A stretch of 64,000 nucleotides of DNA from an uncultured Gammaproteobacteria bacterium (GCA_963783675.1 CAWAOU010000010.1:13050-77049), one strand, 5' to 3'; positions 45,514 to 62,752 are shown, counted from the first letter of the stretch. Numbers and translations are program-made. Notes: generated from the sequence alone by a model not told the origin.

Positions 45514-45570
45514 GGGCATGACCAGGTTATTGCGAGCGCTCGGGTTGAACACCGCTACGGAGGGCGCCCA

Positions 45571-48500: not shown

Positions 48501-48708
48501 CACTACCGTGCTGGGCGTCGTCCCGTTACTGGGTGACGTATTCTGGGTTGGATTGTCCGTCACTCTGATGGCCGGGCTCAGTTTCGGCACCGTTTTGACC
48601 ATGGTGCTGGTGCCGGTTCTGTATACGATTGTTTACCGTGTTTCTTGGCAAGTCGCGGACCGGGATGATTCCAAGAGTACCGAGGCAGTGGTCCTGGGGA
48701 AGGTCTGA
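45571..48708 (+). CDS. RND efflux transporter permease (AcrB/AcrD/AcrF family)
   Basis: EDPEF, YPGASP, GMMVDNAIVV, MMIKNAVVL, RLRPV; 1045 aa. Confidence 0.95.
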   Translation: MSLTATAVNNRAVTYFGAVLLIVGGVFSFFQLGQLEDPEFTVKTAVITTQYPGASPQEVELEVTDRIELALQELKQLDYVSSYSRAGQSMVSVEIKAEYWLDQLPQVWDELRRKIRDVQAELPPGVGVPVISDDFGDVFGFQLAVIGDGFSYAEVERFAKDLKKEISIVEGVARVDLWGAQDEIIYLDVAQSQLAELGLSDASLENTLRQQNRVLDAGKLDIQAKRLRILPSGEFTSPADIADLVIRPSVLDEKQREAVGGGGELTRIRDIGSIRRGYREPPLTLMRYNGRPALGISVTNVSGANVVQVGQAIDRRLEELTANLPIGLEVRRVHWMSDVVAEAVDAFLISFAQALGIVLVVLTLAMGWRMGVIIGGALIVTILGTFILMAVFGIDLQRMSLGALIIALGMMVDNAIVVADGMAVRLQQGMERSRAAVEAASQPALPLLGATVVAVMAFYPIFASTEGAGEYCRTLFSVVAIALLVSWVVSVTMTPLQCIDLLPDPAAGSAQDDPYASGFYRRFRAVVGAAIRLRWLTVVTMIALLAIAVVGFGGVTKLFFPDASMGKFMIDVYAPEGTRIQQVALDLEQAESRLLADERVNGVSAFIGAGPPRFYLPVDPESADQAYAQLLVNVSDYRDIDGLVADIEPWLGARLQDSVISIRKFGVGPSNTWKFEARFSGPAEADPGVLRAISAQASAVLKASPLAGPVRTDWREPTLLMVADYSQERGRWASVTREDIALTTKRAFDGRDIGSYRERDVLLPILLRHVEEERRNVSGIDELQVQPAMSTYSVPLSQVTDGVNLSWEDPIIGRRDRRRTITVEANPIQGVTLPTLLASVREAFEAIELPPGYTLEWGGEYEDTLAAQASLLPGMVPAGAVVIFIIVALFNAYRPPLIILLTIPFALIGVVGGLLAFDVPFGFVALLGAMSLSGMMIKNAVVLLDQVNLNLTGGMAPYPAIVEAAVSRLRPVVLAAATTVLGVVPLLGDVFWVGLSVTLMAGLSFGTVLTMVLVPVLYTIVYRVSWQVADRDDSKSTEAVVLGKV

Positions 48709-48774: not shown

Positions 48775-49221
48775 TCATTGACCCACACTCCGAAACGCGC
48801 CCTCGCTCCACGCCATGGCGTTGTAGCAGCGCCGCAAGTTTGTGCCGCCGCATTCGCTGCCGTGTACGGCGAGCAGCAGAACGGGTTGTCCATCCCAGTC
48901 GACGATGCGCCAACCCTTGGCCAGGAATTCGGTGGTTGATCCGCCGACGATGGCACTGAGCGAACAACCCCCAGTTCCGCAGAACAGTGACGCCGCGCTG
49001 GAACAGGAAAACGCGCGGCTGTCGACCAGTTCGTCCGGCTCTCCGTCGCCGGTGAGATCGACCCGGGTGATAGCCTTGTCGGTGATTTCGAGCACGCCGT
49101 TCTCGAACGACTGACATTCCTGCCGGGCCTTCTGGATGATCGCGTCGCCGGCGTCGGATGCACCGGCGCTGGCTGTTACCAGGACGCAGGCAATAAACAG
49201 GCTTACTGGCAGCTTGGTCAT
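48775..49221 (-). CDS. Secreted cysteine-rich hypothetical protein
   Basis: Signal peptide, DLTGDG.PD loop, FCGTGGC motif, six Cys in the mature part. Confidence 0.65.
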   Translation of the reverse strand: MTKLPVSLFIACVLVTASAGASDAGDAIIQKARQECQSFENGVLEITDKAITRVDLTGDGEPDELVDSRAFSCSSAASLFCGTGGCSLSAIVGGSTTEFLAKGWRIVDWDGQPVLLLAVHGSECGGTNLRRCYNAMAWSEGAFRSVGQ

Positions 49222-49360
49222 GGATGATCCTTGAAACGCCCCGGGCGCTCCCCGCGAGTCGAAATCGGAGCCGGAATCGGCGGCACATTTGACTCAGATT
49301 CGGGGCAGAATAGGGCGTTTGTCAATGATGCGGGTGGTTCGGGGAGTTCGTCCAGACGCC

Positions 49361-50065
49361 ATGGGATATCACAGTGCATTCGGATGCGAGAGCCACGCCG
49401 GCCGGGTTCGCGACAACAACCAGGACGCAGCAAAGTCGGCGGCTGACCTGGGGCTTTGGATCGTGGCCGACGGCATGGGGGGTGAGGCGGCGGGTGAAGT
49501 GGCAAGTCGCCTGGCGGTAGATGAGATCGAAACCGCGATTCGGTCCGGGGACCCGCTGCCGGATGCGGTGACACGCGCCCACCGAAGCATCCGCGCGGCG
49601 CCGGCCAGGGGCTTTGGCTCCGCGGGCATGGGGTCGACGGTGGTGGTGCTCAAACTGCACTCACACCGCTATGAGATTGCCTGGGTCGGGGATAGCCGGG
49701 TCTACCTGCTTCGGCGTGGTGTTCTGACCCAACTGACGCGGGACCACTCCCTGGTTCAGGATCTGCTCGAAAGCGGCGCCATCTCGGTGATAGAGGCACA
49801 AGCTCACCCACACAGGAACATCATCACCCGAGTTCTGGGCGGGGATGCTGAACCGGTGGTCGACCAGTGTTCCGGCCGTGTTGATGCCGGCGACCTTTTC
49901 CTGCTCTGCAGCGACGGTCTCAACAACGAGATCGACGATGCCCGCATCCGTGACCTCCTGACCGCAGCCAAGGGACCAGAAGCCGCAGCGGCGGATCTGG
50001 TGGTGGCAGCGGTGGAGGCGGGGGGGCGAGACAATATCAGTGCGATGGTGGTCGCGGTCGATTGA
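49361..50065 (+). CDS. PP2C/PPM-family Ser/Thr protein phosphatase
   Basis: GRVR..NQD, VADGMGG, MGST, VGDSRVY, TRDHS, LCSDGL, GGRDNIS. Confidence 0.93.
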   Translation: MGYHSAFGCESHAGRVRDNNQDAAKSAADLGLWIVADGMGGEAAGEVASRLAVDEIETAIRSGDPLPDAVTRAHRSIRAAPARGFGSAGMGSTVVVLKLHSHRYEIAWVGDSRVYLLRRGVLTQLTRDHSLVQDLLESGAISVIEAQAHPHRNIITRVLGGDAEPVVDQCSGRVDAGDLFLLCSDGLNNEIDDARIRDLLTAAKGPEAAAADLVVAAVEAGGRDNISAMVVAVD

Positions 50066-50235
50066 GGCGTGTCTGATCTATTCGTGAACGTGCATCCTGG
50101 GACTGAAATGCACAGTTCTATGGTTGCAGGTCCTGGCGATAGTACGATTACTCCCTGCGACCGGCGCCTTGAGTTCCCACATTTCACTCTCCAATCTGCT
50201 TCGCCCAAAACAAATCAGAGGCTCCATCGCTCACA

Positions 50236-52374
50236 TCAGACACGGCTGGCCCGGGTAGACAGTGCCCGCCGGTCCAAGTCCACCAGCACTTCGGTGTTGG
50301 AGAGCGGTGTCGCATTGGTCGATGATTCCGTGCCGGTGAAGGCGGCTGAATGCATGTGCCACCAGGCGCTGGCCTGCCCCTGGTCCCATTCCCCCCATGC
50401 CATGCAGTTCATCAGGCCCGCGCGGAACTCCGATGCGCCCGCGGGGCGGTCCGCCGGCTCCTTACTCAAACAGGTCAGGATAAGCGCCTCGAGATCCGCA
50501 GGGATCCCTGCGCCCGGTGCGCGTTGAGAGGGCGGTACAGGCGCGTCGTGAAGGTGTTTCGCGCATATCTCCACCGCGCTCTCACCGTCAAACACGTTGC
50601 TGCCGGTAAGCAACATGTAGCCGACTGCGCCCAGGGCGTAAAGGTCGCCCTGCGGGCTGGCTTGACCGGGGCTACTGATGATTTCGGGGGCCATATACAG
50701 GGGTGTGCCGATAAGCAGATTCGATTGGGTGAGATTTCCGTCGGTCTCGGCAATTTCCTTGACCAGACCGAAGTCCAGCACCTTGACCACGTCGAACAAT
50801 CCGCCGCGTTCGCAGAGAATCGCGTTGGACGGTTTGATATCACGGTGGATCAGCCTCTTGGCGTGGGCCTCGGCCAGAGAGCCCGCGATCTGCTCCAGTA
50901 TGTGTATAACCCGGGCGGGTGGCAGTGCACCCGCGAACTGTACCAGACGCTCCAGGGTGCCCCCGTTGAGAAATTCCATCGCATAGTAGAGGGTTCCGTC
51001 GGGGGTCCGGCCGTAGTCATAGATGGCGATGGTGTTGGGGTGGTTCAGATTGCTGGTGATCTGGACTTCATGCTCGAAGCGCTTGCGTGCCGAGTCGCTG
51101 CGCGCAAACTCCGGGTTCATCAGTTTGATGGCCGTGGGGCGCCGCAGCAATGCGTGGGTCGCCCGATACACCGCGCCGTTGCCACCCTCGCCGATCTTTT
51201 GTCGCAAACGATACTGTCCCAGTTTGCGTTCCACCCGATCCACCGCTGTTCTGACTTGTCGCCGTATGGATCGCATGGAGGTGACGAACACCAGACCTGC
51301 GATCAAAATCCCCGTCAGGCCGATGCCGGCCAGGGTGAGATTGCGCTGCGTGATCGTCGCGCCCAGAAAGTCGTCTTCGGGAATCAGCACCGCCACCCAG
51401 ACGGTGGTGTCCTCATCCAGCGACTCGGGCGAGAAGCCTGCCCACCAGGGGGCCCGGTCGGGTGTTCGGTATCGGGATATGCCTTGGGGTTGATCTGTTG
51501 CATACCACTGTGCCAAAGCGGCATCCAAGGCGGGTACTTTCAGCTCGGTGACCGGCGAGAGGACCGCCGAGAGCAGGGCGGATTCGTCCTCGAACCTTGG
51601 GTCGGGTGGCAGGCCGAGTGTCTCACCGTCCTGGGTAAAGATCACCGTCATGCCGTTGTCGCTTGGTCGAAGCTGCGTTGTTTGGTGGGAGATATCGATC
51701 AACGTGATGTTGAACGAGACCACATGCTCTGCTTCGCGCTGCAGCGGGCTCCATCGGCTGGATACCGATACGCCGGGTTGTTTGGTGGTGAGGAAGGTAT
51801 ACGGCGTGGTCCAGAACCCATGTCCGCTTTCGCGTGACATGGCGCCCTTGAACCAGGGTCGATCCACAGGCGAGACGTCGGTCTGACGAGTCCATTGTTC
51901 CACCACGACCCCATGAACCCGCCGCTGCCAGAGCGCCACATTGGGTGCCTCGGCCTCGATACCCCGGGTCAGGATCTCCCCGGGTCGCTTGATCAGGACG
52001 TACTCATTGCCGTCGGCATCGGCCAGGTTGATGGAATCCAGAAACGGAAACTGTGACAGAAACGGCGCCAACGCGCTGAACAAGGGATCCCGATGCCCGG
52101 GGCGGATGTCGTGGTGCTGGATTTGCCTTTGTGCCAGGTGAAGTCCGTCCTGGGCGTCATCGAACAGGTTCTGCAGGGTTTGTGCAGTGGCCTGCGTGTT
52201 GCTCTCAATCAGCCGTTTGGACAGGGAGGTGGTCAACCTGTGATCGAAGTAGAACAGTGAAGCTGTCGCCAGTACAGCGGTGACGATGGCGATCATCACC
52301 AGATTGCGCGCAAGGGGTCGGTAAAAACGGGCGAACTGGGAATCAAGCCCGTGGGTTTTTGCAAATGTCTTCAT
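50236..52374 (-). CDS. Membrane Hanks-type Ser/Thr kinase with periplasmic Cache-like sensor domain
   Basis: Two TMs flank an extracytoplasmic domain (RPWF…WTTPY..L). Kinase motifs GEGGNG, AIK, HRDIKPSN, DFG, GTPLYMAPE. Confidence 0.92.
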   Translation of the reverse strand: MKTFAKTHGLDSQFARFYRPLARNLVMIAIVTAVLATASLFYFDHRLTTSLSKRLIESNTQATAQTLQNLFDDAQDGLHLAQRQIQHHDIRPGHRDPLFSALAPFLSQFPFLDSINLADADGNEYVLIKRPGEILTRGIEAEAPNVALWQRRVHGVVVEQWTRQTDVSPVDRPWFKGAMSRESGHGFWTTPYTFLTTKQPGVSVSSRWSPLQREAEHVVSFNITLIDISHQTTQLRPSDNGMTVIFTQDGETLGLPPDPRFEDESALLSAVLSPVTELKVPALDAALAQWYATDQPQGISRYRTPDRAPWWAGFSPESLDEDTTVWVAVLIPEDDFLGATITQRNLTLAGIGLTGILIAGLVFVTSMRSIRRQVRTAVDRVERKLGQYRLRQKIGEGGNGAVYRATHALLRRPTAIKLMNPEFARSDSARKRFEHEVQITSNLNHPNTIAIYDYGRTPDGTLYYAMEFLNGGTLERLVQFAGALPPARVIHILEQIAGSLAEAHAKRLIHRDIKPSNAILCERGGLFDVVKVLDFGLVKEIAETDGNLTQSNLLIGTPLYMAPEIISSPGQASPQGDLYALGAVGYMLLTGSNVFDGESAVEICAKHLHDAPVPPSQRAPGAGIPADLEALILTCLSKEPADRPAGASEFRAGLMNCMAWGEWDQGQASAWWHMHSAAFTGTESSTNATPLSNTEVLVDLDRRALSTRASRV

Positions 52375-52388
52375 GCGTTTATGCGCGA

Positions 52389-54605
52389 TCAGCTGCGGTC
52401 TGTGTCCTTTGCCGGGCCGGAATCAGGGCCATTGTTGCCGGTCTTGTCGCCGGCAAGGGGCGTGCCGGGATTGGTTGCATCCGTTTCGGGTTGTCGTGCG
52501 GCGGCGGCCAGGCGGTCACGGGCTGCCTGCCGCAGCGGAGGCTGCGTCCCGGTTGCCATTCTCACCCTGGCGAGCAGCGGACCCAAGCGCGCCCAGATCT
52601 CCGCCGGAACCCGGTTTTCCAGGTATTCAAGTGCCGTGCCCCGAAGTCTGGCATCCCCACTCTGAAGGGCTTGCTGGCTGAGCTCTACGGTCTCGGGGTC
52701 GTAGACTGCCCCTAACAGCAGAAAGATCAGTTGCAGTGTCGAGCGCTCTGAGTCCTCAACCTTCGATTTGTTGGACGCATCCCTGCGGGCGAGGTATCGG
52801 GATTCCCGGGCGATCACCTCCAGCAGTCGGCGACGCGGGATGCGGAGTCCCGGTTGCAGCCGATGAATCGTCTCCAGCGCCTGCGCGCACCGGTAGCGAA
52901 CGTTCCACTCCTGTGTGGTGAGCGCCGCGACCAGACCTTCCACGGCAAGCGGACTGTCCGAATAGGCCATGGCCAGCGGTAGGCGGCGTCTAACCAGTGG
53001 ATGCTGAGTCGGCGTCAGTAAAGCGTCGACCAACTGGCCCGCGCCGGTGGAGGCGAATCGGCGAATACCCCGCAGCGCTTCTTTCACGAAACGGTCATCG
53101 GCCAGCAATGAGAGCACGTGAGGCAACAGTTCCGGGGTGATGGTCTGGCTGGCCAGAACCCGTTTGACCCGTACCGGACTTCCGCTCCGCAGTTCCATGA
53201 TGGACCGGACCACCGGATCTACGGTATCCGTCACCGGCATGGCCGCGGGCGCTGTCGCTGTGGCGCCGTTCCGGGTGCTGGCGATCTCCCGAAGGACCTG
53301 ATCGCGTTCGAGCGCGGTCGGGGGCAGGGCAAGGGTGTTGCCGGTGCTCGGGTCCACCATCGGTGAATCTTCGAGGACAAAACGCCCACTGCGCAGATTC
53401 CTGGCCAATTGCCGGACATAGTTGCGATGCAGCAAAAGAATCAACAGCAGGCAGATTCCGGCCAGCATGAGCGCAGCCAGCAACAACAGCGTCTCGTTGG
53501 CCACCGGAATCATCAAAATCGACATGATCAACAGGCCGCCGAGGAGATCGCCCGACCGGTCCGCTCCCACGTCGATCAGAATCTTGCCGGTGCGTTTGTC
53601 GGCCGGCGGAATTGGCGTGTACAAAACCTCGAATCCTGCGCGAAAGAACGAGTTGTAAAACAGGTTCGCGCTGGCTCGCATCAGGGTTGCGGTGACCAGT
53701 GAGCGAAAAACAAGCGCGCTGGCACCCGAAATCAGGATGGCCAGTGGCCATGCCGCCATCGTCCCGCCCAGTCCGAACCAGCGCAGCGCCCTGTCACCGA
53801 TCACAGACTGGACCAGGAAGGTGCCCAGGCCCACCGCCATGTAGAAATAGGAAAAAAACGTAATCAGATCCGCGTCGGACAAGCTGGCCGATGCCTCGGC
53901 CTTGAGCACGTAGTCCAGCACCGCGGCCGTGGTTGCCACCAGCAAAGCCAGCAAGGCCATGCGCCTGATCAGCGGGCTGCGTTTCAGCGGTTCGAGAAAG
54001 TTGGGCGGTGGTCCGCCACTGAGAGGGGGGCCAACGTGTCCCCGGGCGAGCACGCTGATGGCAAGGCCACAGACCAGATGCATGAGACTGAGCATGAGTA
54101 AGACCGCATGGGTGTCTGCCGCCGTGGCCACCGCGTTGGCGGCGATGCCCCCGACCAGGCCGCCGAACGTGGTTGCCGCCGTGAGCCGGGTGATGACTCG
54201 CTTGGCCGAATGCGGGTCGAAGCGCTCGTTGATCAACGACCAGAATCCGCTGATCAGAATCGAGTTGAGCGCCGAAATCTGGAGATACAGACACGCCGCG
54301 GCCAGCTTTGGATCCAGATCAGTCAAAAACCATTGCCCTACCAGCAAACCGGCGCTGATCAGGTACATAATGGGCATCAGCCGACCCGGGCCGGAGCGGC
54401 TGAGCAGCCTTGACATCAGGATCGCCGCCCCGATCGAGATGGCCGCACTGGCCATCATGATCTTTGGCAACTGGTCCACTTCGAAGTAGGTCAGAAACAA
54501 GGCGTCACGGGTTGCCTTGCCGGCAATATGCTGCGCGATCATGACCGCGGCGCCAAACATGGCGACCAGTGTGAGCGTTCGCTGTGTGTTGTGTGTGGTT
54601 GGCAA
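52389..54605 (-). CDS. NTT/TLC (Npt1/Npt2-like) nucleotide translocase-like MFS protein with C-terminal HEAT repeats
   Basis: ~12 TMs with KATRDALFL, FW....ERFD...AKR, E.LYTPIP…K..ID...R.GD patterns typical of the family. C-terminal helical repeats (VRRRLP.A, VRYRCAQAL, LRGTALEYL). TTG start uncertain. Confidence 0.7.
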   Translation of the reverse strand: MPTTHNTQRTLTLVAMFGAAVMIAQHIAGKATRDALFLTYFEVDQLPKIMMASAAISIGAAILMSRLLSRSGPGRLMPIMYLISAGLLVGQWFLTDLDPKLAAACLYLQISALNSILISGFWSLINERFDPHSAKRVITRLTAATTFGGLVGGIAANAVATAADTHAVLLMLSLMHLVCGLAISVLARGHVGPPLSGGPPPNFLEPLKRSPLIRRMALLALLVATTAAVLDYVLKAEASASLSDADLITFFSYFYMAVGLGTFLVQSVIGDRALRWFGLGGTMAAWPLAILISGASALVFRSLVTATLMRASANLFYNSFFRAGFEVLYTPIPPADKRTGKILIDVGADRSGDLLGGLLIMSILMIPVANETLLLLAALMLAGICLLLILLLHRNYVRQLARNLRSGRFVLEDSPMVDPSTGNTLALPPTALERDQVLREIASTRNGATATAPAAMPVTDTVDPVVRSIMELRSGSPVRVKRVLASQTITPELLPHVLSLLADDRFVKEALRGIRRFASTGAGQLVDALLTPTQHPLVRRRLPLAMAYSDSPLAVEGLVAALTTQEWNVRYRCAQALETIHRLQPGLRIPRRRLLEVIARESRYLARRDASNKSKVEDSERSTLQLIFLLLGAVYDPETVELSQQALQSGDARLRGTALEYLENRVPAEIWARLGPLLARVRMATGTQPPLRQAARDRLAAAARQPETDATNPGTPLAGDKTGNNGPDSGPAKDTDRS

Positions 54606-54915
54606 GGTTGAGTATGTCGACCCGCTGCAAGAAACCCAGTATGCCCTGTCCGATCAGGTTCGAAAAAATCTATGCGTTGCCTATTATCCGTAAGTGCCCG
54701 TCGCGGTGAGTGCCCGCCATGATCGGACTGATTCGACGGGCGCGACGGGGATGGTCGGTGCCGTGCGATATGGCACATGGGTGCATGGTTTAGATCGTAC
54801 AAGGGAATCGGCAAAGATATATATGAAACCGTCGCTTCCGACACTAAGCTTAGGTAGAATAGTGACACCGGGTGTCTTTCAGACATTGTGCTAAAGCCGT
54901 GGGGATATATTGACC

Positions 54916-55887
54916 GTGACCAGATTGGGTGAGCGTTTTGCGGGGGTGTCGCGCCGTTTGGTCCGACTGATGGTTCCTGTTCTGGTCGCCTCTGCGCCGC
55001 TTTCGCCGGTTCACAGTGCGCCCAGTATGCTCAGGCACAGCGCATCCATGAACACGGAGGAACTGGCGACCCATGCGGATGGCCAGCTTCAGCAAGCCCT
55101 GGAGAAACTTGTGCGTGAGCAGGGTCTCTGGGGTCAGGTCGCGTCTCACAGGCTCGCCCTGGGCTTGGTTGACGTGACCGATGTCGATGCGCCCCGCTAT
55201 GCGGCGCTGAATCCGAACCAGATGATGTATGCGGCGAGTCTGCCCAAGATAGCGATTCTTCTGGGCGCTTTCGTGGAAATTGGGGACGGGGAATTGAAGC
55301 TCGATCCCGGCCTGCGGGAAGAAATGGTTCGCATGATCCGGTTCTCGGACAATGCCTCTGCCACCCGGGTGCTGGAACGGGTGGGCCGCCAGGATCTGAT
55401 CAACATCCTCACTTCGGACAAGCTCAAACTATACGATCGGGATTTCAATGGCGGCCTGTGGGTGGGCAAGGACTATGCCCGCAACAACGCCTATCAGCGG
55501 GACCCCCTGAGCAACCTCTCCCACGGCGCCACCATCTATCAGGTCGCACGGTTCTTCTATCTTCTGGAAAAAGGGCAACTGGTGGCGCCTCGCTACCGCA
55601 CCGACATGATGCGGATCCTGTCCAAGCCCGGCATCTCGCACAAGTTCGTGGCCGGCCTCAAAAATCACCCGGAAGTGCGCATGTATCGTAAGTCCGGTAC
55701 CTGGCGTGACTATCATGCTGACGCCGCCCTTGTGGAGACCGACAGCCACCGCTACATCATCGTTGGCTTGGCCCAGCATAAGGAGGCTGGGAAATGGTTT
55801 TCTCGACTGGCAGAGCCGATGCACAACCTGGTGGTGAACTGGCCGGCGTCAGCCAACGGACGTCAGCGGGTTGCACTGCGTCCTTGA
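54916..55887 (+). CDS. Serine hydrolase of class A beta-lactamase/PBP fold (no ExxLN omega-loop motif seen)
   Basis: SxxK (SLPK), SDN, KSG. N-terminal export signal. Start uncertain (54910-54970). Confidence 0.85.
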   Translation: MTRLGERFAGVSRRLVRLMVPVLVASAPLSPVHSAPSMLRHSASMNTEELATHADGQLQQALEKLVREQGLWGQVASHRLALGLVDVTDVDAPRYAALNPNQMMYAASLPKIAILLGAFVEIGDGELKLDPGLREEMVRMIRFSDNASATRVLERVGRQDLINILTSDKLKLYDRDFNGGLWVGKDYARNNAYQRDPLSNLSHGATIYQVARFFYLLEKGQLVAPRYRTDMMRILSKPGISHKFVAGLKNHPEVRMYRKSGTWRDYHADAALVETDSHRYIIVGLAQHKEAGKWFSRLAEPMHNLVVNWPASANGRQRVALRP

Positions 55888-55930
55888 GCCCCTAATCCAA
55901 TCTGTTTGAGTCTGATCTGCGTATGATTGA

Positions 55931-57232
55931 TCAGTTTCCCGTCGCCGCCTGTTCGACCGAACTGGGCTCAGCCGGATGCATCTGCTCCATGATGGTCTGG
56001 ATATGAGTTGCGAGGGATTGGTGTTCGTAAGCTGAGTTCTTGCGCAACACGTTCGAGATCAGCATCACCATGTATCTCAGTCGTTGACCTTCGGCCGGAC
56101 TTTCGACGATGGCGAACGAGTTCATATAGTTTTTCACGTTCCCCTTGTACTTCTCGCACTTGAAACCGGGTTCCTCCTTACAGCTATACAGGGAGCCCGA
56201 CTTGAAGTAGACCGCTGAATCGGCCAGCTTCGGGGCCGATGCGTAGCGTATGCGGCGCTCGGTCACATAGATCAGCCGTTTGATCTGGCGGCTGGAAAAG
56301 ACGTCCACCAAACGCCCCTGTTCCATACGCAGCCCATACTCCATCAGGGAACGCGCCGTGGCGTAGCTGGGCCCGGGTCCAGGCACCACCTTCTTGCCCT
56401 GGTGGGTAAAGAAACTGGCCTGACGAAATGACTCGAGATCGAATCCGTTGCGCACCAGGGGCTCCATGAACGTCCGTTCGAACAGCGCGGTGAGTTCAGG
56501 CTTGGGCGTTTCCTTGAAGAATCGTTTGATCTCGGCTTCCGGCGGCGGATACTCAGGTCCGTACTGGCGCATCAACATGGCCTCGCGCATGACCATGCCG
56601 GCGGCGGAGTTGGAGCTGGGGGATAGCATCCAATCCAGATACTCCCACAGGCTTGCCTGATCGCCATCGCGGATCGTGCGTCGTGTCAGGGTCTGGGTCT
56701 CAACATTGAACAGACGCACCGTGTGGTGGTCGGTGTGCGCGAACTGATCGGCGGTGACGACGGTCTCCCTCAGCACCCGGACGCGATCCGCCTGGTCCGG
56801 CCAGATGTCCGCCAGGGCCTGAAAGACCGACAGCACCACCACCAGTTTACCGACGCTGCCGACGTTCTGGCGAAAGTCGCCCCGATGTTCTGCGTACTTG
56901 AGATTCGGCAGTTCGGACAGGTCGAGGGCCGCGATGCCGTATCGGTCGGCCTGTCCGCCCAGCCGTTTAACGATCTGCCGGGTAAATTCCGGGTCGGCCG
57001 GGGGCAGTTCCAGATCCGGGTGGTTGAGCAGCCTCAGATCAACCGCATCGGTTGACAACAGGGCGCCCGGCGGCTGTTTCGAGCCCTTGATTATGCCTTC
57101 GTTGGCGAGACGGGAGGCCTCGAGACGTCGAATCCCGGTATCCGCATAGCCATCCAGAGGATAGCTCTGGGTGAGGGCCGGCATGATCAGTGTGAGCCCG
57201 AGTAGAAGTCCGGCAATGCGAGAGCCTTTCAT
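55931..57232 (-). CDS. Secreted divergent PBP/beta-lactamase-fold protein
   Basis: Signal peptide, SVGK (SxxK), SSN (SxN), KSG, Cys pair CKEEPGFKC. ATGA overlap with the upstream dikinase stop. Confidence 0.7.
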   Translation of the reverse strand: MKGSRIAGLLLGLTLIMPALTQSYPLDGYADTGIRRLEASRLANEGIIKGSKQPPGALLSTDAVDLRLLNHPDLELPPADPEFTRQIVKRLGGQADRYGIAALDLSELPNLKYAEHRGDFRQNVGSVGKLVVVLSVFQALADIWPDQADRVRVLRETVVTADQFAHTDHHTVRLFNVETQTLTRRTIRDGDQASLWEYLDWMLSPSSNSAAGMVMREAMLMRQYGPEYPPPEAEIKRFFKETPKPELTALFERTFMEPLVRNGFDLESFRQASFFTHQGKKVVPGPGPSYATARSLMEYGLRMEQGRLVDVFSSRQIKRLIYVTERRIRYASAPKLADSAVYFKSGSLYSCKEEPGFKCEKYKGNVKNYMNSFAIVESPAEGQRLRYMVMLISNVLRKNSAYEHQSLATHIQTIMEQMHPAEPSSVEQAATGN

Positions 57233-60141
57233 TGGGCCGGCACCTGGTTGAGGTTTACGGATATGCCCGACGTGGCGGCCAGGGTCTTATCCATTTCAAC
57301 CAGATAGGTGTTGCCCCGAGCGCTGCCGCTTTCCAGGAACGGGCGGATCTGGAACAAACGGAACTCACCGTCAACAAACCCAAACTCGACATCGGCTGCG
57401 GCGGGTCGACCGCTGTCGTCAAGTATCGATGGAAATCGCTGCGGCAATTCGTCTCGGGCGAACACGATCAGACGCTCTATTTCTGCTGGCTGCAGAACCG
57501 CATCGGCACCGGTCGCAGGCAGTTTCTCGATTCCGCTTGCCGGGCCCGGGCGCCGTCGCCAGGGGGCAGTCGCGGTGGCCAGCAGCTGAACAGAACCGTC
57601 ACGGGTGTCGATGCGCAGGGATTCCGCCGCCTGCCCATCCACGGCTCCACCCACACCTTCATTGATCGCCACCGATACGATGGCCCGGTCTCCGGTCTCC
57701 AGATCCTGAGTAACCAGCACGCCCGACTTGTCCGACGCCACCGATTTCAAAAGCAGAATCGAGGTAAACACATACTCGGGGTTTTCCATGTGCGACTGAC
57801 GCCAGGCGAAGGCGCGGGCGGTAAACGGCGATGCCCAGACACGGTTGATGGACTGCAGCAGATTGTCAAAACCCACCACATTGGGCAGGGTCAAGTTCAA
57901 TCCCGCTCCGGTGAAGCCGGGCAGATCCTCTACATTGGTGTCGGATCGAACGAACACGCCCACGTCGGCGCTGCCAAAGGTTTCCACCATGGCGGCACGG
58001 AGTTGATCCTGGAACCCGGCGCTGGGCTGGGTGTTCAGGATCAGATCATACAATTCGGCGCGAAACGCTTCGGTTTGTTGCTCCCGCTCGGCGGATCCCT
58101 GCGGCAGCCCGGCCAGGATTCCGTACTGTGCCACCATCCACTCAAACACGCTTTGCCCACCGCCTTTGTAGGGTCGATCCAGTACTTCAGCCTTGAAAAT
58201 GCCAAAAGGAATGGCGACGCCCTCGGCAACGGCACCTGGAAAGGCGTGCCGCAATTCCCCCAGCTTGGCTGCCTTGGGTCCGACGGTTCGACCCGAATCG
58301 CTGGCGCGCAATTGGTCCAGCGGGGCGAACGAGTGCATGGTCAGATCAAGCTTGTCCAGATCGGGACGAATCACCACATCGCTGGCGCCCTGGCCTTGCC
58401 CCAGACGTGCCGCCCACGCATCATCGAACGGATCGAGCTCCACCAGCCCGGCCGGACTCACTGCAAGCACAACCTCCTTGGCGTCATGGGGCAACAGGGT
58501 CTCGATCAGGCTTTCGTCCATGGCCACGTTCGGTATGCCGAGATTGCGCGCCAGCAATTGGACGTGGGACAGGGGATTGCCCTCACCCGCGGTCATGATA
58601 CCGGCGACCGGGGGCAGGTCGGACACGGTTTCCGGCAGTACGTAGATGCCGCGGGGTTCAAACTCCTCCATGCGTTCCAGGTCCGGACGGGCGTGGAGCA
58701 CGCCCACCGCGAGGCCCGGATTGAGGGCCTGGAAACCCACCCCCACGTCCTTGCCAAATACTTTATGCCTCACACCGGCCAGGCGATTGCCGTCTCGGGT
58801 AAGACCGTCCAGCACCTGGGAGTAAAACAGCAGCGGGCTGCCCCGGAGCTGATCCTGGATGAACAGCAACGCCTTGGGCTCGATCTCGGCCAGTTTTTGC
58901 ATGGACTCAAAGAAAACAAAGCGCAGGTTCTGAGTTGCCCAGCCCGGAACCCGCCCCAGGTAGCGCAGCTCGGCGCGGTACTTGTCCAATGAAATCTCTG
59001 GACCGGTCATGGCGGCCAGACTCTCCTGCAATGCCTGGTGTTCGCGGGCTTTGATTACCCCGGTGCCGTAGGCCGCATCCGCAGTGCTGCCTATAATCCG
59101 CAGGCGCTCGTCACGGGTGGCATTGCCCAGGCCCTCGCGAAGTTCGACGCCGGAGCTGAAATTCTCGGTTTCCACGGTGAGGCTGAGATCCAGCAAACGC
59201 AGCCGCGCCGCGGGTTGCCTCACCCGAGGCAGGGCATCGCGCAAATCGGCCAGGAGTTTGCCACTGACCCGGTAGCGATTGCCCGCGGACGGATCGGCGC
59301 TCAACTGCGCAGCGGCATCCCGGAGCAACGCCTGCAGCCACGGGCCACCGCTGAAGACCCGTGCATTGGACTCCAGCACATCGGTCAGCGGTTCGGCCTG
59401 ATAAATCTGGTCGATGGACTCGGCCAGTGCCTCAAGTCGCTTTCTCAGGGCCGGATCGGCGACGTCGCCGGCATAGCGTCTAACCCGGTCCGCGTCGCTG
59501 GCCTCGGGCGAGCCATGAATCTTGACCCGTGTGGACATGAAGCCCGGGTCCATATCCGACAATGCGGCCGATTCCTGGCGGACCTTCTGGGCTGAAGCGG
59601 TTTCCTTGCCATGGGGGAGCAACCGGACTCCGATGCGCAGTCCTGGGAATCGTGGACCAATCCAATCCGGTTGCGCGGCCAGATACTCGAGCAGAGCCCG
59701 GGCACCTTCCCGTTCGTCCTCTTCCTGGATAGCACCGCGATAGAACAGTGCCTGACGCAGAATCCAGCCGTCGTCGGCGCCGGTCAGGTAGCGTTCGATC
59801 AGAATCTGCGCGAACAGGTCGTTGAAGTCGGGTTGTCCGGCGAGTTCTGCCGCATCGATGCCCGCCAGCAAGTTCGCCACCAGGTATCCCTGCTGACGCA
59901 ACTCGAGGGTCTGCTTGCTCCACTCGCCATGTTGATGGCCGCCGCCCCGAGACTCGCAGGGATAGGGTTTCGGTGGATGGGCCGTGCCGTCGTTGCAAAA
60001 CCAGCGAAGACGATCGAACGGACCTCGGGGTGCCGCCTTCATGTCCTCGATCCACTGGCGGTAGGTGTCGGTGTCCTGCGCAAGCACCGTCAGCGGTACC
60101 ATACTCAGGGCGACAACGAGGGTCAGCATCAAACGTCGCAT
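57229..60141 (-). CDS. Secreted PEP-utilising-enzyme-superfamily dikinase-like protein (helical domain - phospho-His domain - C-terminal ATP-grasp)
   Basis: ATG 60141 with Sec signal MRRLMLTLVVALSMVPLTVLA/QD. His motif PLSHVQLLARNLGIPN. ATP-grasp motifs VGPKAAKL, VRSDTNVEDLPGFTGAGL, VWASPF, SGV, DVEFG..FQIRP. No pyruvate-binding TIM barrel. Confidence 0.85.
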   Translation of the reverse strand: MRRLMLTLVVALSMVPLTVLAQDTDTYRQWIEDMKAAPRGPFDRLRWFCNDGTAHPPKPYPCESRGGGHQHGEWSKQTLELRQQGYLVANLLAGIDAAELAGQPDFNDLFAQILIERYLTGADDGWILRQALFYRGAIQEEDEREGARALLEYLAAQPDWIGPRFPGLRIGVRLLPHGKETASAQKVRQESAALSDMDPGFMSTRVKIHGSPEASDADRVRRYAGDVADPALRKRLEALAESIDQIYQAEPLTDVLESNARVFSGGPWLQALLRDAAAQLSADPSAGNRYRVSGKLLADLRDALPRVRQPAARLRLLDLSLTVETENFSSGVELREGLGNATRDERLRIIGSTADAAYGTGVIKAREHQALQESLAAMTGPEISLDKYRAELRYLGRVPGWATQNLRFVFFESMQKLAEIEPKALLFIQDQLRGSPLLFYSQVLDGLTRDGNRLAGVRHKVFGKDVGVGFQALNPGLAVGVLHARPDLERMEEFEPRGIYVLPETVSDLPPVAGIMTAGEGNPLSHVQLLARNLGIPNVAMDESLIETLLPHDAKEVVLAVSPAGLVELDPFDDAWAARLGQGQGASDVVIRPDLDKLDLTMHSFAPLDQLRASDSGRTVGPKAAKLGELRHAFPGAVAEGVAIPFGIFKAEVLDRPYKGGGQSVFEWMVAQYGILAGLPQGSAEREQQTEAFRAELYDLILNTQPSAGFQDQLRAAMVETFGSADVGVFVRSDTNVEDLPGFTGAGLNLTLPNVVGFDNLLQSINRVWASPFTARAFAWRQSHMENPEYVFTSILLLKSVASDKSGVLVTQDLETGDRAIVSVAINEGVGGAVDGQAAESLRIDTRDGSVQLLATATAPWRRRPGPASGIEKLPATGADAVLQPAEIERLIVFARDELPQRFPSILDDSGRPAAADVEFGFVDGEFRLFQIRPFLESGSARGNTYLVEMDKTLAATSGISVNLNQVPAQ

Positions 60142-60376
60142 TTGACTCTCCGAAGATCTGGGGTTCGGCGGTGATGATTCGAGACGGTCAGAATCGCTGG
60201 AAGGGGACGATACCAGATTCTGCGCTTTTTTGAGATGGGCCTGGGATGCGCTGTCGGTATCGACGCCACGGTGGCGTCCGGACCCACTTACATTGACAGA
60301 CGGCCGCGTTGATCCGCCTGCTACCTTTTCGCCCGCCCGCGTCAAGTGTTTCTGGGCGCCGGGCCGAAGATGGACA

Positions 60377-61141
60377 TCATTCGGGTCGGTCGGCTGACTC
60401 GGCAGACACGCTCTCGACCCGGTTTCGTCCCAGCCGTTTGGCGGCATACAAGGCCGCGTCCGCCCGGGCAACCATAGCCTCGCTGTCGTCGCCGGCAGCG
60501 AATGCAGTAACGCCAAAGCTGGCGGTAATGTGTCCCAACTCTCCCAGATCCGCCTGTTCGATCCGTGTCCGTATGCTGTTGGCCAGGGACGCTCCTCCCT
60601 GGGTGTTGGAATGGAGCGATATGACCATGAATTCCTCACCGCCCCAACGCCCGACCAGGTCCGTTGCACGTACGGTGGATCGGACCACACCGGCGAGGGC
60701 GGCCAGAACCCGGTCGCCTGCCTGATGGCCGTAGACGTCGTTGACCGACTTGAAGTGATCCACGTCCATCATAAGCAGACAAAACCCGGTCTCATAACGA
60801 GCGGCGCGCCTGATTTCGGTTTCAAGCAGTTCTGTGATGCGGCGTCGATTGTAAAGGGATGTCAGCGCATCTTCCTGGGACAGGCGGATGACCTCGCTGC
60901 GAAGCAACTGGTCTTGTCGGATCGACCGGACGCCGATCACGCCGGGTACGATCAGAGCGAGCAGGGAGAAGAAGGCCGCGGTGCCCACGAACTCCCAGCG
61001 CTCGCGGTTGGTTTCCGTGCGGTGATCGTGGAACACGCGGGGCAGCAGCCTGTCTTCAAGACAAAACTCCCAGGCGAGGCTCAGCAGAACCACGGTCGCG
61101 AAAATGGCCAGGAGCGTAGCGAAAAAATCCTTCTGACTCAT
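60377..61141 (-). CDS. Two-TM diguanylate cyclase (GGEEF)
   Basis: DALT.LYNRR, DVDHFKSVND.YGH..GD, I-site RATD, GGEEF, ADAALY.AK..GRN. Confidence 0.92.
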   Translation of the reverse strand: MSQKDFFATLLAIFATVVLLSLAWEFCLEDRLLPRVFHDHRTETNRERWEFVGTAAFFSLLALIVPGVIGVRSIRQDQLLRSEVIRLSQEDALTSLYNRRRITELLETEIRRAARYETGFCLLMMDVDHFKSVNDVYGHQAGDRVLAALAGVVRSTVRATDLVGRWGGEEFMVISLHSNTQGGASLANSIRTRIEQADLGELGHITASFGVTAFAAGDDSEAMVARADAALYAAKRLGRNRVESVSAESADRPE

Positions 61142-61221
61142 GGCCCAATCGCGTCACGTCCGAATATCGAGTTCTGGCTATCGCGTTCCTTGCCTTGACC
61201 AATGCTGCCGATCCGCGGGTC

Positions 61222-62445: not shown

Positions 62446-62752
62446 ATCTAACTCGCTCGAACCTGTGGTGGATGATAAATCTTGAGCAGTAATCAAACCG
62501 AGCACCGCGCATCGGTGGATGCGTCAAGCGGCAGCATGTCTGGCGCTTATGTGGTAACGGCCATGTGACTGTCCCTGCCGTATTCTTCTATTCGCACGAC
62601 CCAGCTTGCGCAGTGGAACTCGCAACACCTGCTGCCTGAATCACGATCACTGCTTGGATCAAATTGATGCAAGCAAGCGCATCAATCTTACCATCGTACC
62701 ATTGGAGCCTTGGGTAACAGCGATCAATTGATCGAATCTTGATCCAGGTCAG

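What the first reader, a model, noticed from the sequence alone, without database searches (positions are those of the whole stretch)
49361..60141. Candidate undescribed ATP-fed periplasmic phosphotransfer system: exported dikinase + two PBP-fold proteins + nucleotide translocase + Cache-STK/PP2C
Seen: six contiguous genes. A signal-peptide dikinase-like enzyme is translationally coupled (ATGA) to a secreted SxxK/SxN/KSG protein. A second SxxK/SDN/KSG protein converges on these and is divergent from an NTT/TLC-like translocase-HEAT gene. That gene lies ~15 bp upstream of a Cache-Ser/Thr kinase, which converges on a PP2C phosphatase. Established: PEP-utiliser dikinases need ATP, the periplasm is generally considered ATP-poor, and NTT proteins exchange ATP/ADP or other nucleotides across membranes. 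Inference: the translocase supplies ATP to an exported dikinase that phosphorylates or activates an envelope substrate (glycan, peptidoglycan fragment or small molecule). The PBP-fold proteins would bind, hydrolyse or transacylate it, with kinase/phosphatase control. I know of no characterised system with this composition.
Basis: partly seen in the sequence, partly recalled or inferred. Interest (0 to 1): 0.88.

Follow-up and report, generated by a model that had tools for sequence, protein, structure and literature searches.

The report
Exported dikinase module with nucleotide transporter
A secreted ATP-using phosphotransferase, two secreted penicillin-binding-type enzymes and an ATP/ADP-translocase-type membrane transporter form a conserved gene module in many environmental bacteria, which suggests that these cells deliberately feed ATP into the periplasm, a compartment usually taken to lack it.

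Summary
The conserved unit differs from the six genes.

- **Core module.** It is a Sec-exported ~970-aa phosphotransferase (DIK), a 433-aa and a 325-aa exported class-A-beta-lactamase/PBP-A-fold serine enzyme, and an NTT/TLC-family transporter. An e(P4)-type 5'-nucleotidase often joins them.
- **DIK architecture.** Signal peptide, then a new helical N-domain with an invariant Cys pair, then a His swivel domain, then a C-terminal PPDK_N ATP-grasp.
- **Transporter forms.** A short ~450-aa form and/or the NTT-HEAT form seen here.
- **Neighbourhoods.** Of 20 related loci with long flanks, 20 carry the 433-aa gene, 17 the 325-aa gene and 15 an NTT.
- **Genome co-occurrence.** In 400 sampled Gammaproteobacteria, all 33 genomes with DIK also have an NTT gene, against 67 of 367 without DIK. 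In 24 of the 33 it lies within ~10 kb of DIK.
- **Accessory genes.** Ser/Thr kinases recur sporadically (7 of 91 loci). The PP2C was seen nowhere else.

Best reading (0.55): the NTT exports ATP for an exported dikinase. The acceptor substrate is unknown, and localisation and transport are untested. One complete genome has a lone exported DIK homologue with no NTT found.

In seven literature searches, the five that returned papers found no description of such a system, one found no paper, and one did not find the NTT structure paper it sought. Interest is high.

The parts
57229..60141 (-). DIK: exported His-swivel/ATP-grasp phosphotransferase, 970 aa
   Evidence: Pfam PPDK_N 5.1e-21 and PEP-utilizers 19.6 bits. 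AlphaFold2 model with mean pLDDT 88.3 and pTM 0.83. About 970-aa homologues are abundant.
60073..60141 (-). Sec-type signal peptide of DIK (residues 1-23, ends ..VLA|QD)
   Evidence: Read from the sequence. 29 of 37 homologues pass a strict hydrophobicity and K/R heuristic. By eye 36 of 37 show the pattern; the remaining one is N-terminally truncated.
58771..60072 (-). DIK N-terminal domain (residues 24-457): small beta unit with invariant C49/C62, then an all-helical domain; presumed acceptor-binding domain
58396..58770 (-). DIK phosphohistidine swivel domain (residues 458-582); putative catalytic His526 at 58564-58566
57316..58341 (-). DIK C-terminal nucleotide-binding ATP-grasp domain (residues 601-942)
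55931..57232 (-). BL433: exported class-A-beta-lactamase/PBP-A-fold serine enzyme, translationally coupled to DIK
   Evidence: ATGA overlap. Invariant SxxK, SxN and K-S-G motifs and C351/C359. Model pLDDT 84.6. Foldseek matches CTX-M and PBP-A at TMt 0.70-0.77, E about 1e-9. Present in 64 of 82 loci. By the earlier tblastn count (63 of 82), 61 lie directly downstream of DIK on the same strand.
54910..55887 (+). BL325: second exported Beta-lactamase2-family serine enzyme, convergent on BL433 and divergent from the NTT gene
   Evidence: Pfam 1.3e-17. Invariant S110xxK113, S146xN148, K261-S-G263. Found in 42 of 82 loci. One contig of an RNA library spans 54875-55890.
52389..54605 (-). NTT-HEAT: NTT/TLC-family 12-TM-type transporter domain (about residues 1-400) with a C-terminal HEAT-repeat region
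   Evidence: Pfam TLC 22.5 bits (cut-off 21) and HEAT_2 23.2 bits. hhalign probability 98.9% to the short-NTT profile. That profile matches solved ADP/ATP carriers 9j3n and 9j3j at E 6e-26 and 2e-21 over their full length. Long-form orthologues lie beside DIK in 8 of 82 loci and in L097, L099, L100, L101 and L103.
50236..52374 (-). dCache-TM-Hanks-type Ser/Thr kinase, 14 nt downstream of NTT-HEAT; lineage-specific accessory
   Evidence: Pkinase 7.1e-46, dCache_1 26.5 bits. A 48.5%-identical kinase sits between the short and the long NTT in L100.
49361..50065 (+). PP2C-type Ser/Thr phosphatase, convergent on the kinase; link to the module not shown
   Evidence: NCBIfam Stp1/IreP 213.7 bits (cut-off 230). 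No PP2C was found in the other 91 loci searched. L013, the same-genus locus, ends before this position.

Best explanation
The window carries one copy of a widespread envelope module.

**Shown.** Four gene families travel together:
- a Sec-exported phosphotransferase of the PEP-utilising (dikinase) superfamily, DIK;
- two exported serine enzymes of the class-A-beta-lactamase/PBP-A fold;
- an inner-membrane transporter of the NTT (ATP/ADP translocase) family.

An e(P4)-type 5'-nucleotidase often joins them.

**Inferred mechanism.**
1. The NTT moves cytoplasmic ATP into the periplasm.
2. The C-terminal ATP-grasp domain of DIK binds the ATP.
3. The swivel domain's His526 is (pyro)phosphorylated and carries the phosphoryl group to an acceptor held by the novel helical N-terminal domain.
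4. AMP and Pi are released. The 5'-nucleotidase or counter-exchange through the NTT recovers them.
5. The two serine enzymes act on the same envelope substrate, before or after phosphorylation. Candidates are a D-Ala-D-Ala-type peptide, a peptidoglycan fragment or a beta-lactam-like compound.

In this Competibacteraceae genome the NTT is the HEAT-fused form. It is co-transcribed with a periplasm-sensing dCache Ser/Thr kinase, which may gate ATP export. The short NTT and the 5'-nucleotidase lie on another contig.
For: **(1) Anatomy.**
- The catalytic motifs of the ATP-grasp and the swivel His are conserved in 37 homologues down to 28% identity.

**(2) Export.**
- Signal-peptide-like N-termini: DIK 29 of 37, BL433 28 of 29, BL325 30 of 31 by a strict heuristic.
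- Invariant Cys pairs in the DIK N-domain and in BL433.
- The mature BL433 begins at a conserved YPLDGY motif directly after the cleavage-type site.

**(3) Neighbourhood.**
- Of 82 related loci: BL433 64, BL325 42, any NTT 40, 5'-nucleotidase 12.
- Among the 20 loci with at least 3 kb upstream and at least 5 kb downstream: 20, 17, 15 and 5.
- The order DIK> BL433> <BL325 NTT> recurs in 7 of 7 loci fetched around DIK from whole genomes with DIK and NTT on one contig (L097-L103; the eighth genome fetched, G127, was chosen because the two lie 1 Mb apart and is split).
- It also recurs in 4 of 6 loci from elsewhere in the phylum: 5 from other classes and 1, G759, from the same class.

**(4) Genome level, 400 Gammaproteobacteria.**
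- DIK is in 33 genomes.
- An NTT-family match is in 99.
- 32 of the 33 DIK genomes are among those 99. The 33rd, G243, has an NTT-HEAT beside DIK.
- That compares with 67 of 367 genomes without DIK.
- In 24 of 33 the two genes share a contig within ~10 kb.
- Of the 33 genomes with a best NTT match at E 1e-98 or better, 29 have DIK.

**(5) The transporter is a true NTT relative.**
- 20 of 24 short forms match Pfam TLC, best 5.8e-22.
- Their profile matches solved ADP/ATP carriers over the full length.

**(6) The 5'-nucleotidase.** TIGR01533 e(P4) family, 2.4e-53. It abuts or overlaps the NTT or BL325 gene and precedes the short NTT in this genome.

**(7) Same logic in other NTT clades.**
- The NTT lies directly after a CotH kinase gene in 3 of 3 loci; the kinase N-terminus looks signal-peptide-like in at least two of them (L118, L119), by eye.
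- The NTT lies directly before a Tat-signal aldo/keto reductase in 10 of 11 loci.

**(8) RNA libraries.** Contigs from RNA libraries of 4 studies cover BL325 and parts of BL433 and DIK.
Against: - Nothing here shows transport, its substrate or its direction.
- Characterised NTTs import ATP or exchange ATP for ADP+Pi (my recollection, and the abstracts seen). A dikinase would release AMP, so the counter-substrate is unclear.
- One complete genome, G759, has a signal-peptide-bearing DIK homologue (33% identity). No NTT was found there with A2 or PF03219, and no BL433.
- 5 of 20 long-flank loci lack an NTT nearby.
- The short-NTT profile was built from DIK-adjacent genes, so the 'best tier' count is partly circular.
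- Related genomes are not independent.
- One search scored at most 4 candidates per genome, so its tallies are a floor.
- Export was judged by a home-made heuristic, not by a trained predictor.
- The N-domain has no recognisable fold, so the acceptor is unknown.
- The window's own TLC match is weak (22.5 bits, partial).
Confidence: 0.55

Rival explanations
1. Nucleotide salvage. The NTT imports nucleotides from the periplasm and the e(P4)-type phosphatase trims them. DIK would work in the ATP-forming direction, like glycolytic PPDK, regenerating ATP from AMP and a phospho-donor. Alternatively DIK is only co-regulated with the transporter.
For: All characterised NTTs import nucleotides (abstracts listed; passages of PMC5381601). 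The 5'-nucleotidase and NTT genes abut each other, also away from DIK in this genome. PPDK-type chemistry is reversible (established knowledge).
Against: No plausible high-energy periplasmic phospho-donor is known. DIK lacks the PEP/pyruvate domain. A general salvage role would not predict that 33 of 33 DIK genomes carry an NTT against 67 of 367 others. It would also not predict other NTT clades beside an exported CotH kinase and a Tat-exported reductase.
Confidence: 0.13
2. The NTT carries the pathway's own substrate or product, not ATP. This could be a nucleotide-like or phosphorylated small molecule made outside and taken up, or a precursor exported for phosphorylation. DIK would obtain its phosphoryl donor by another route.
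For: From recollection, NTT family members carry diverse cargo such as NAD, SAM and various nucleotides; the reference list of PMC5381601 seen cites NAD transport by Chlamydia Npt1 and an S-adenosylmethionine carrier in Amoebophilus. The DIK-linked short NTTs are only about 20-25% identical to the long form and distant from solved carriers. The lone DIK in G759 has no NTT found.
Against: The ATP-grasp site residues of DIK are conserved, so a nucleotide donor is needed outside anyway. No other candidate supplier recurs in the loci.
Confidence: 0.17
3. Antibiotic or xenobiotic inactivation island. DIK would be a periplasmic analogue of rifampin phosphotransferase that phosphorylates an antibiotic, and the two serine enzymes would be beta-lactamases. 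This concerns the substrate only and is compatible with ATP supply by the NTT.
Against: The NCBIfam rifamycin phosphotransferase model scores 71.7 bits against a cut-off of 999. No rifampin-binding domain is present. No mobile elements were noticed in the loci, though I did not search for them specifically. The gene order is conserved across classes, which looks like a housekeeping envelope function.
Confidence: 0.1
4. DIK is not periplasmic. The N-terminal hydrophobic segment would be an uncleaved anchor or an annotation artefact, the catalytic domains would face the cytoplasm, and the clustering would reflect shared regulation only.
For: No trained signal-peptide predictor and no experiment was available.
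Against: The basic-hydrophobic-AxA pattern is kept in homologues as low as 28-35% identical, while that stretch is otherwise unconserved. The positive-inside rule puts the body outside. C49 and C62 are invariant. Both partner enzymes also carry signal peptides.
Confidence: 0.05

Closest known systems
Rifampin phosphotransferase (RPH-Lm; PDB 5hv1, 5fbs) and PEP synthase / PPDK
   Different: The domain order is permuted: the acceptor domain comes first and the ATP-grasp last. There is no rifampin-binding or PEP/pyruvate domain. The protein carries a signal peptide and a conserved Cys pair. Family-model scores lie far below the cut-offs.
Plant alpha-glucan, water dikinase (GWD/PWD) with the starch phosphorylation, hydrolysis and dephosphorylation cycle (recalled, not from a call)
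   Same: The same order: N-terminal substrate-binding region, then the His domain, then a C-terminal nucleotide-binding domain. The system logic is similar, with a dikinase plus hydrolases plus a phosphatase.
   Different: Pfam detects no CBM45 or CBM20. The N-domain is helical with no known fold. The hydrolases here have the beta-lactamase fold, not an amylase fold. The compartment is the bacterial periplasm.
NTT/TLC nucleotide transporters (plastid NTT1, chlamydial Npt1; PDB 9j3j, 9j3n) and the uncharacterised NTT-HEAT fusions of free-living bacteria (Major et al. 2017, PMC5381601; passages read)
   Same: Full-length profile homology. Shared motifs in the alignment printed, such as FW.FAN and Y.P.D...K.K.K..ID. 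The window protein has the NTT-HEAT architecture.
   Different: Only about 20-25% identity within the family. The organisms are free-living. The paper gives no function for such NTTs and does not mention export or the periplasm (0 occurrences of either word). Here the proposed direction is outward.
PBP-A of Thermosynechococcus (PDB 2j7v) and class A beta-lactamases (CTX-M, KPC)
   Same: Same fold (TMt 0.70-0.77) and the same SxxK / SxN / KSG triad.
   Different: 12-17% identity. BL433 is about 160 residues longer, with insertions and an extra Cys pair. No sequence-level PDB match was found. Whether a Glu166-type deacylation base is present was not tested.
[quoted passage not shown]
   Same: Another exported enzyme that needs ATP chemistry in the periplasm.
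   Different: An unrelated fold and reaction. As far as I saw, no dedicated nucleotide transporter is described with it.

Membership tests
PEP-utilising enzyme / dikinase superfamily | PPDK_N-type ATP-grasp nucleotide-binding domain | tested here: met
PEP-utilising enzyme / dikinase superfamily | Mobile phosphohistidine domain with a conserved catalytic His | tested here: met
PEP synthase / PPDK proper | C-terminal PEP/pyruvate-binding TIM-barrel domain (PEP-utilizers_C) and an N-terminal ATP-grasp | tested here: not met
   No PF02896 match. The ATP-grasp is C-terminal. NCBIfam PEP synthase models score about 84 bits against cut-offs of 598-740.
Rifamycin-inactivating phosphotransferase (RPH) | Full-length match to the RPH family model, including the rifampin-binding domain | tested here: not met
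   NF041857 scores 71.7 bits against a cut-off of 999, on the ATP-grasp part only.
Glucan, water dikinase (GWD/PWD) | N-terminal starch-binding modules (CBM45 or CBM20) | tested here: not met
   No CBM family among the Pfam hits at E 0.01 or better. The shared domain order is recalled, not tested.
NTT/TLC nucleotide transporter family (window protein 52389-54605) | Sequence membership of the 12-TM NTT domain | tested here: met
   Pfam TLC 22.5 bits (cut-off 21), partial. hhalign 98.9% to the short-NTT profile. That profile matches solved NTTs at E 6e-26. TIGR00769 scores only 23.5 bits against a cut-off of 387, so this is a distant member.
NTT/TLC nucleotide transporter family | Transports adenine or other nucleotides | not testable with these tools
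   Needs uptake and efflux assays.
NTT-HEAT fusion clade (Major et al. 2017) | NTT domain followed by C-terminal HEAT repeats | tested here: met
   HEAT_2 at 23.2 bits on residues 525-580, below the cut-off of 27.7. Long-form orthologues form one clade with support 1.0 in my FastTree, midpoint rooted. Their placement in the published clade was not tested.
Class A beta-lactamase / PBP-A-like penicillin-recognising enzymes (BL433, BL325) | SxxK, S-x-N and K-T/S-G motifs on the beta-lactamase fold | tested here: met
   The motifs are invariant. BL433 fold TMt 0.70-0.77. BL325 matches Pfam PF13354 at 64.3 bits. The BL325 structure was not predicted.
Class A beta-lactamase proper | Omega-loop Glu166 general base for deacylation | not tested
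   No residue-level structural alignment was made.
e(P4) / class C acid phosphatase 5'-nucleotidase (neighbour in related loci and on contig C16 of this genome) | HAD-IIIB domain and a match to the e(P4) family model | tested here: inconclusive
   PF03767 at 122-123 bits. TIGR01533 at 181.1 bits, below its equivalog cut-off of 216. The lipobox was not examined.
Hanks-type Ser/Thr kinase with a Cache sensor; Stp1-type PP2C | Pkinase domain; PP2C domain | tested here: met
   Pkinase 157.2 bits; PP2C_2 46.2 bits. The Stp1/IreP model scores 213.7 bits, just below its cut-off of 230. dCache_1 is below its cut-off.

The most novel reading that the evidence does not exclude
NTT-family transporters of free-living bacteria may be outward provisioning systems that stock the periplasm with nucleotide cofactors for exported enzymes. 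The cargo would be ATP for this exported dikinase and for exported CotH kinases, and possibly NAD(P)H for Tat-exported aldo/keto reductases. If so, the periplasm of many environmental Pseudomonadota would not be nucleotide-free. ATP-driven phosphorylation of envelope substrates would then be a regular part of their biology, here perhaps gated by a Cache-sensing Ser/Thr kinase acting on the HEAT-fused transporter.
Probability: 0.35. Interest if true: 0.95.

Novelty: categorically new. Interest (0 to 1): 0.86.

Why it matters
Textbooks treat the Gram-negative periplasm as lacking ATP. Known envelope chemistry works around this by using pre-activated donors such as D-Ala-D-Ala, undecaprenyl-PP and phospholipids.

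A conserved module that pairs an exported, catalytically intact ATP-grasp phosphotransferase with an ATP/ADP-translocase-type transporter would overturn that assumption for a sizeable group of bacteria.
- DIK was found in 33 of 400 sampled Gammaproteobacteria.
- It was also found in 26 genomes of other classes in the 401-genome phylum sample, 22 of them from one genus.
- The N-domain family has 647 clusters at 50% identity.

It would also give the first testable function for NTTs of free-living bacteria. Major et al. 2017 (PMC5381601, passages read) describe the NTT-HEAT fusions as not functionally characterised and offer only possible roles for NTTs of free-living organisms.

Finally, it would define two new subfamilies of penicillin-recognising enzymes tied to phosphorylation chemistry.

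Tried and rejected
- **Complex prediction.** Complex prediction of the DIK N-domain (residues 25-495) with BL433 (23-433) gave the verdict 'no answer', score 0.00. It says nothing either way.
- **Promoter and terminator scan, 49000-61500.** 4 promoter-like and 9 terminator-like sites, no more than in shuffles.
- **Sequence searches of the PDB.**
  - BL325 and BL433 as single proteins gave no match.
  - As profiles they gave only marginal rows: OXY-1 at 0.51, PBP-A at 0.024, and GroEL rows I take as chance.
- **ESM Atlas with the N-domain.** Only two unnamed clusters came back, at 0.88 and 0.79, probably the family itself. No structure search was possible.
- **Fold of the N-domain.**
  - Foldseek rows all fall on the ATP-grasp.
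- **Genome-contig scan with the single protein.** It found only 2 loci. The metagenome scan with the alignment replaced it.
- **RNA libraries.** No contig lies on the NTT gene or on most of the kinase in the 4 runs laid. This is not evidence of silence.
- **Binding-site residues of NTT1.** The structure paper was not found in the library, so no residue-level check was made.
- **Literature searches for a prior description of the system**: one found no paper and none of the others described it. Supplementary files were not consulted.
- **Shadow ORFs.** Clusters 7, 9, 11, 12 and 13 were read as shadow ORFs over real genes from their positions and were dropped.

Full report
**1. Observation**

| Gene | Coordinates | Strand |
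|---|---|---|
| PP2C | 49361-50065 | + |
| dCache-Ser/Thr kinase (STK) | 50236-52374 | - |
| NTT/TLC-like transporter with HEAT repeats | 52389-54605 | - |
| 325-aa serine enzyme (BL325) | 54910-55887 | + |
| 433-aa serine enzyme (BL433) | 55931-57232 | - |
| 970-aa dikinase-like protein (DIK) | 57229-60141 | - |

- The ATGA overlap of DIK and BL433 is in the sequence.
- So is the 14-nt gap between the transporter and the kinase.
- A GGAGAG box precedes the DIK start.
- Pfam and NCBIfam confirm every family call, several of them weakly.
- A same-genus record, 95% identical in DIK, names the organism as a Candidatus Competibacteraceae bacterium.

**2. The dikinase-like protein**

DIK is not a PEP synthase.
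- Its PPDK_N ATP-grasp lies at the C-terminus (residues ~601-942).
- A PEP-utiliser-type His domain (~458-582) precedes it.
- Before that comes a ~430-residue domain without any Pfam family.
- There is no PEP/pyruvate domain.

Conservation in an alignment of 37 homologues, 28-70% identical (A1):
- Invariant or near-invariant nucleotide-site-type residues: K623, R732, E738, D917, E919, Q931, R933.
- The S525-H526 pair of the swivel domain.
- In the N-domain, an invariant Cys pair (C49, C62) within a motif around RWFC.DG...C..HGGG.QHGEW.

The AlphaFold2 model is confident (mean pLDDT 88.3, pTM 0.83).

Fold matches:
- N-domain: only generic helical bundles.

The domain order, acceptor domain then His domain then ATP-grasp, is that of plant glucan water dikinases. 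That comparison is from my memory, and no starch-binding module is detected.

**3. Export**

N-termini pass a strict test (hydrophobic 10-mer with mean Kyte-Doolittle 2.0 or more in the first 70 residues, preceded by K/R) in these proportions:
- DIK: 29 of 37.
- BL433: 28 of 29.
- BL325: 30 of 31.

Of the 8 DIK misses, one lacks its N-terminus. The other seven fall just under a threshold and still show the pattern by eye.

In BL433 the conserved mature sequence YPLDGY starts directly after the small-x-small site.

Conserved Cys pairs in the DIK N-domain and in BL433 (C351/C359) fit an oxidising compartment.

No trained predictor was available, so export is well supported but not proven.

**4. 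How common the family is**

- The full protein finds thousands of relatives. The best 120 are 958-1001 aa long and are named only 'PEP/pyruvate-binding domain-containing protein' or 'hypothetical'.
- The N-domain alone matches 647 cluster representatives at E 1e-3 or better and 291 at 1e-30 or better. Nearly all full-length ones are ~970 aa, with the domain starting 20-50 residues in.
- Among 41 close relatives of this genome, only the genome itself and one same-genus genome have the full-length protein.
- Among 400 evenly drawn Gammaproteobacteria, 33 have it, in 28 of 321 genera.
- In a 401-genome phylum sample, 28 have it. Of these, 26 are in other classes and 22 of those belong to one genus.

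**5. Gene neighbourhood**

I examined 82 loci: 80 metagenome contigs (the best 80 of 371 confirmed relatives among 597 candidate stretches) and 2 genome records. I used family HMMs built from my own alignments.

| Partner | All 82 loci | 20 loci with ≥3 kb upstream and ≥5 kb downstream |
|---|---|---|
| BL433 | 64 | 20 |
| BL325 | 42 | 17 |
| Short NTT | 34 | 13 |
| Long NTT-HEAT | 8 | 3 |
| Any NTT | 40 | 15 |
| HAD-IIIB phosphatase | 12 | 5 |

- By the earlier tblastn count (63 loci), BL433 lies directly downstream of DIK on the same strand in 61.
- Most misses are contigs that end early.
- Five long-flank loci (L032, L039, L067, L072, L084) have no NTT nearby.
- The order DIK> BL433> <BL325 NTT(short)> (NTT-HEAT>) is found in 7 of 7 loci fetched around DIK from whole genomes in which DIK and an NTT share a contig (L097-L103). 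In the eighth genome fetched, G127, chosen because the two genes lie 1 Mb apart, DIK+BL433 and the divergent BL325/NTT pair sit apart (L104, L105).
- It is also found in 4 of 6 loci from the phylum sample. A fifth genome, G580, has the trio and a short NTT elsewhere.

**6. The transporter**

- Twenty of 24 short forms match Pfam TLC, best 5.8e-22.
- Their profile matches the solved ADP/ATP carriers 9j3n and 9j3j at E 6e-26 and 2e-21 across the whole length. Shared motifs are visible in the printed alignment.
- The window's NTT-HEAT aligns to that profile with 98.9% probability over 372 columns.
- This genome also has a short NTT on contig C16. It is 39% identical to a DIK-adjacent one. It lies directly after a HAD-IIIB phosphatase gene.
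- The phosphatase family matches the e(P4) 5'-nucleotidase model at 2.4e-53, below the equivalog cut-off.

**7. Genome-level co-occurrence**

- In the same 400 genomes, 99 have an NTT-family match at E 1e-5 or better. This is a floor, because at most 4 candidates per genome were scored.
- 32 of the 33 DIK genomes are among those 99.
- The 33rd, G243, has an NTT-HEAT beside the trio.
- So 33 of 33 DIK genomes carry an NTT, against 67 of 367 genomes without DIK.
- In 24 of the 33, DIK and an NTT share a contig within ~10 kb (coordinates).
- NTT E-values show a gap between 4e-98 and 1.5e-76. Of the 33 genomes above the gap, 29 have DIK.
- The four without DIK are G078, G087, G325 and G389.

Caveats:
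- The profile came from DIK-adjacent genes.
- Related genomes are not independent.
- G078 and G334 are flagged as unpublished. They enter only these tallies.

**8. An exception**

G759 is a complete genome with a DIK homologue (33% identity in the N-domain).
- The homologue has a signal-peptide-like N-terminus and the Cys pair.
- No NTT was found with the short-NTT profile or PF03219.
- No BL433 was found.
- The neighbours are unrelated.
- The PF03219 search matched nothing in its control genomes either, so it is weak evidence.

**9. The serine enzymes**

- Both keep SxxK, SxN and K-S-G invariant.
- The BL433 model (pLDDT 84.6) has the class A beta-lactamase/PBP-A fold, with TMt 0.70-0.77 at 12-17% identity and large insertions.
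- Sources name BL433 relatives only 'serine hydrolase'.
- Whether they hydrolyse, transfer or merely bind is open.

**10. Kinase and phosphatase**

- A kinase 48.5% identical to the window's (residues 339-674, without the Cache part) lies between the short and the long NTT in L100.
- Receiver-domain-kinase fusions, 57-60% identical to one another, lie divergently beside DIK in L099, L101 and L103.
- Further kinases are in L087 and L105, and the same-genus L013 has the orthologue. That makes 7 of 91 other loci.
- No PP2C was found in any of them.
- Kinase control is therefore a recurrent accessory, not core. The PP2C link is unsupported.

**11. Other NTT contexts (seen in passing)**

- The three best-tier NTT genomes without DIK that I fetched have the NTT directly after a CotH-kinase gene. 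That gene sits in a cluster with a glycosyltransferase. The kinase N-terminus looks signal-peptide-like in at least L118 and L119, by eye.
- Ten of 11 second-tier NTTs are followed by a ~315-aa aldo/keto reductase with a twin-arginine signal. TIGR01409 is just over its cut-off in the one tested.
- In a midpoint-rooted FastTree without an outgroup, the long forms, the reductase-linked forms and the CotH-linked forms are each one clade (support 1.0). The CotH clade nests among DIK-linked short NTTs.

**12. Expression hints**

- The stretch occurs in sediment and salt-marsh runs.
- Contigs from RNA libraries of four studies, mostly 99% or more identical, cover BL325 and pieces of BL433 and DIK. 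One contig spans 54875-55890.
- DNA carry-over cannot be excluded.

**13. Mechanism, shown versus inferred**

Shown:
- The module and its composition.
- The intact catalytic motifs.
- The export-type N-termini.
- The NTT homology.
- The co-occurrence.

Inferred:
- The NTT delivers ATP outward.
- His526 carries the phosphoryl group to an acceptor on the N-domain.
- AMP is recycled by the 5'-nucleotidase or by exchange.
- The serine enzymes work on the same substrate.
- The Cache kinase tunes the HEAT-fused transporter.

Weak points:
- The transport direction and counter-substrate are unknown.
- The acceptor is unknown.
- G759 is an exception to the rule.

**14. Prior knowledge**

- Major et al. 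2017 (PMC5381601; passages read) report NTTs and NTT-HEAT fusions in free-living bacteria with unknown function. They do not mention the periplasm or export.
- Six searches for a prior description returned no description of an exported PPDK_N-family enzyme or of an NTT serving periplasmic enzymes; one of them found no paper at all. A seventh sought the NTT structure paper and did not find it. Supplements were closed.
- I therefore rate the system as categorically new at the level of the system. It is built from known superfamilies.

Noticed in passing
L106, L108-L116 (whole-genome loci around second-tier NTT genes): In 10 of 11 fetched loci an NTT-family gene is directly followed by a ~315-aa aldo/keto reductase (PF00248) with a twin-arginine export signal. 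This suggests a periplasmic NAD(P)H-dependent enzyme paired with a nucleotide transporter.
   Followed up: partly
L117:4984-8306, L118:5223-8371, L119:5192-8370: In three genomes with a DIK-type short NTT but no DIK, the NTT lies directly after a CotH-kinase gene (595-657 aa; signal-peptide-like N-terminus in at least L118 and L119, by eye). Upstream are a 281-288-aa protein with a signal-peptide-like N-terminus, a ~495-aa protein with hydrophobic N-terminal segments, and a GT2 glycosyltransferase with an MshEN domain.
   Followed up: partly
L096:5548-9968 (this genome, contig C16): The genome's second, short NTT (473 aa) overlaps the end of an e(P4)/HAD-IIIB phosphatase gene. A class I methyltransferase and a 326-aa protein of no known family precede them on the same strand.
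   Followed up: partly
L099:17082-18353, L101:7640-8917, L103:5836-7083: Receiver-domain plus Ser/Thr-kinase fusions (~420 aa, 57-60% identical to one another) lie divergently next to DIK in three genomes of two families.
   Followed up: partly
window 61222-62505 (-) and 60377-61141 (-): Upstream of DIK lie a PPK2 polyphosphate kinase with a ~160-residue low-complexity, Pro/Ala/Glu/Lys-rich N-terminal extension and a small membrane-anchored GGDEF protein. Both are kept in the same-genus locus L013 and were found in none of the other loci (one weak, partial GGDEF match in L087).
   Followed up: partly
window 44374-48708 (+): A membrane-fusion protein and a 1045-aa RND-type efflux pump gene lie just upstream of the PP2C. 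I assigned them from the translations only and ran no Pfam search on them.
   Followed up: no
G001:C65:3-1961: The same-genus genome has a second DIK paralogue, 61% identical, at a contig end, in addition to its 95% orthologue.
   Followed up: no
window 54875-55890: One contig from an RNA library begins 35 nt before the BL325 start, with adapter sequence before it, and ends 3 nt after its stop. This would fit a monocistronic BL325 transcript.
   Followed up: no
L021:4576-6372, L029:10771-12489: A Na+/H+-exchanger with a TrkA-N domain lies between BL433 and the NTT-HEAT gene in two related loci.
   Followed up: no
L014:4790-5698; L120:3304-4257 and 5625-6665; L124:13544-14584 and 15935-16879: Some loci carry two BL325 paralogues flanking the short NTT gene.
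   Followed up: no
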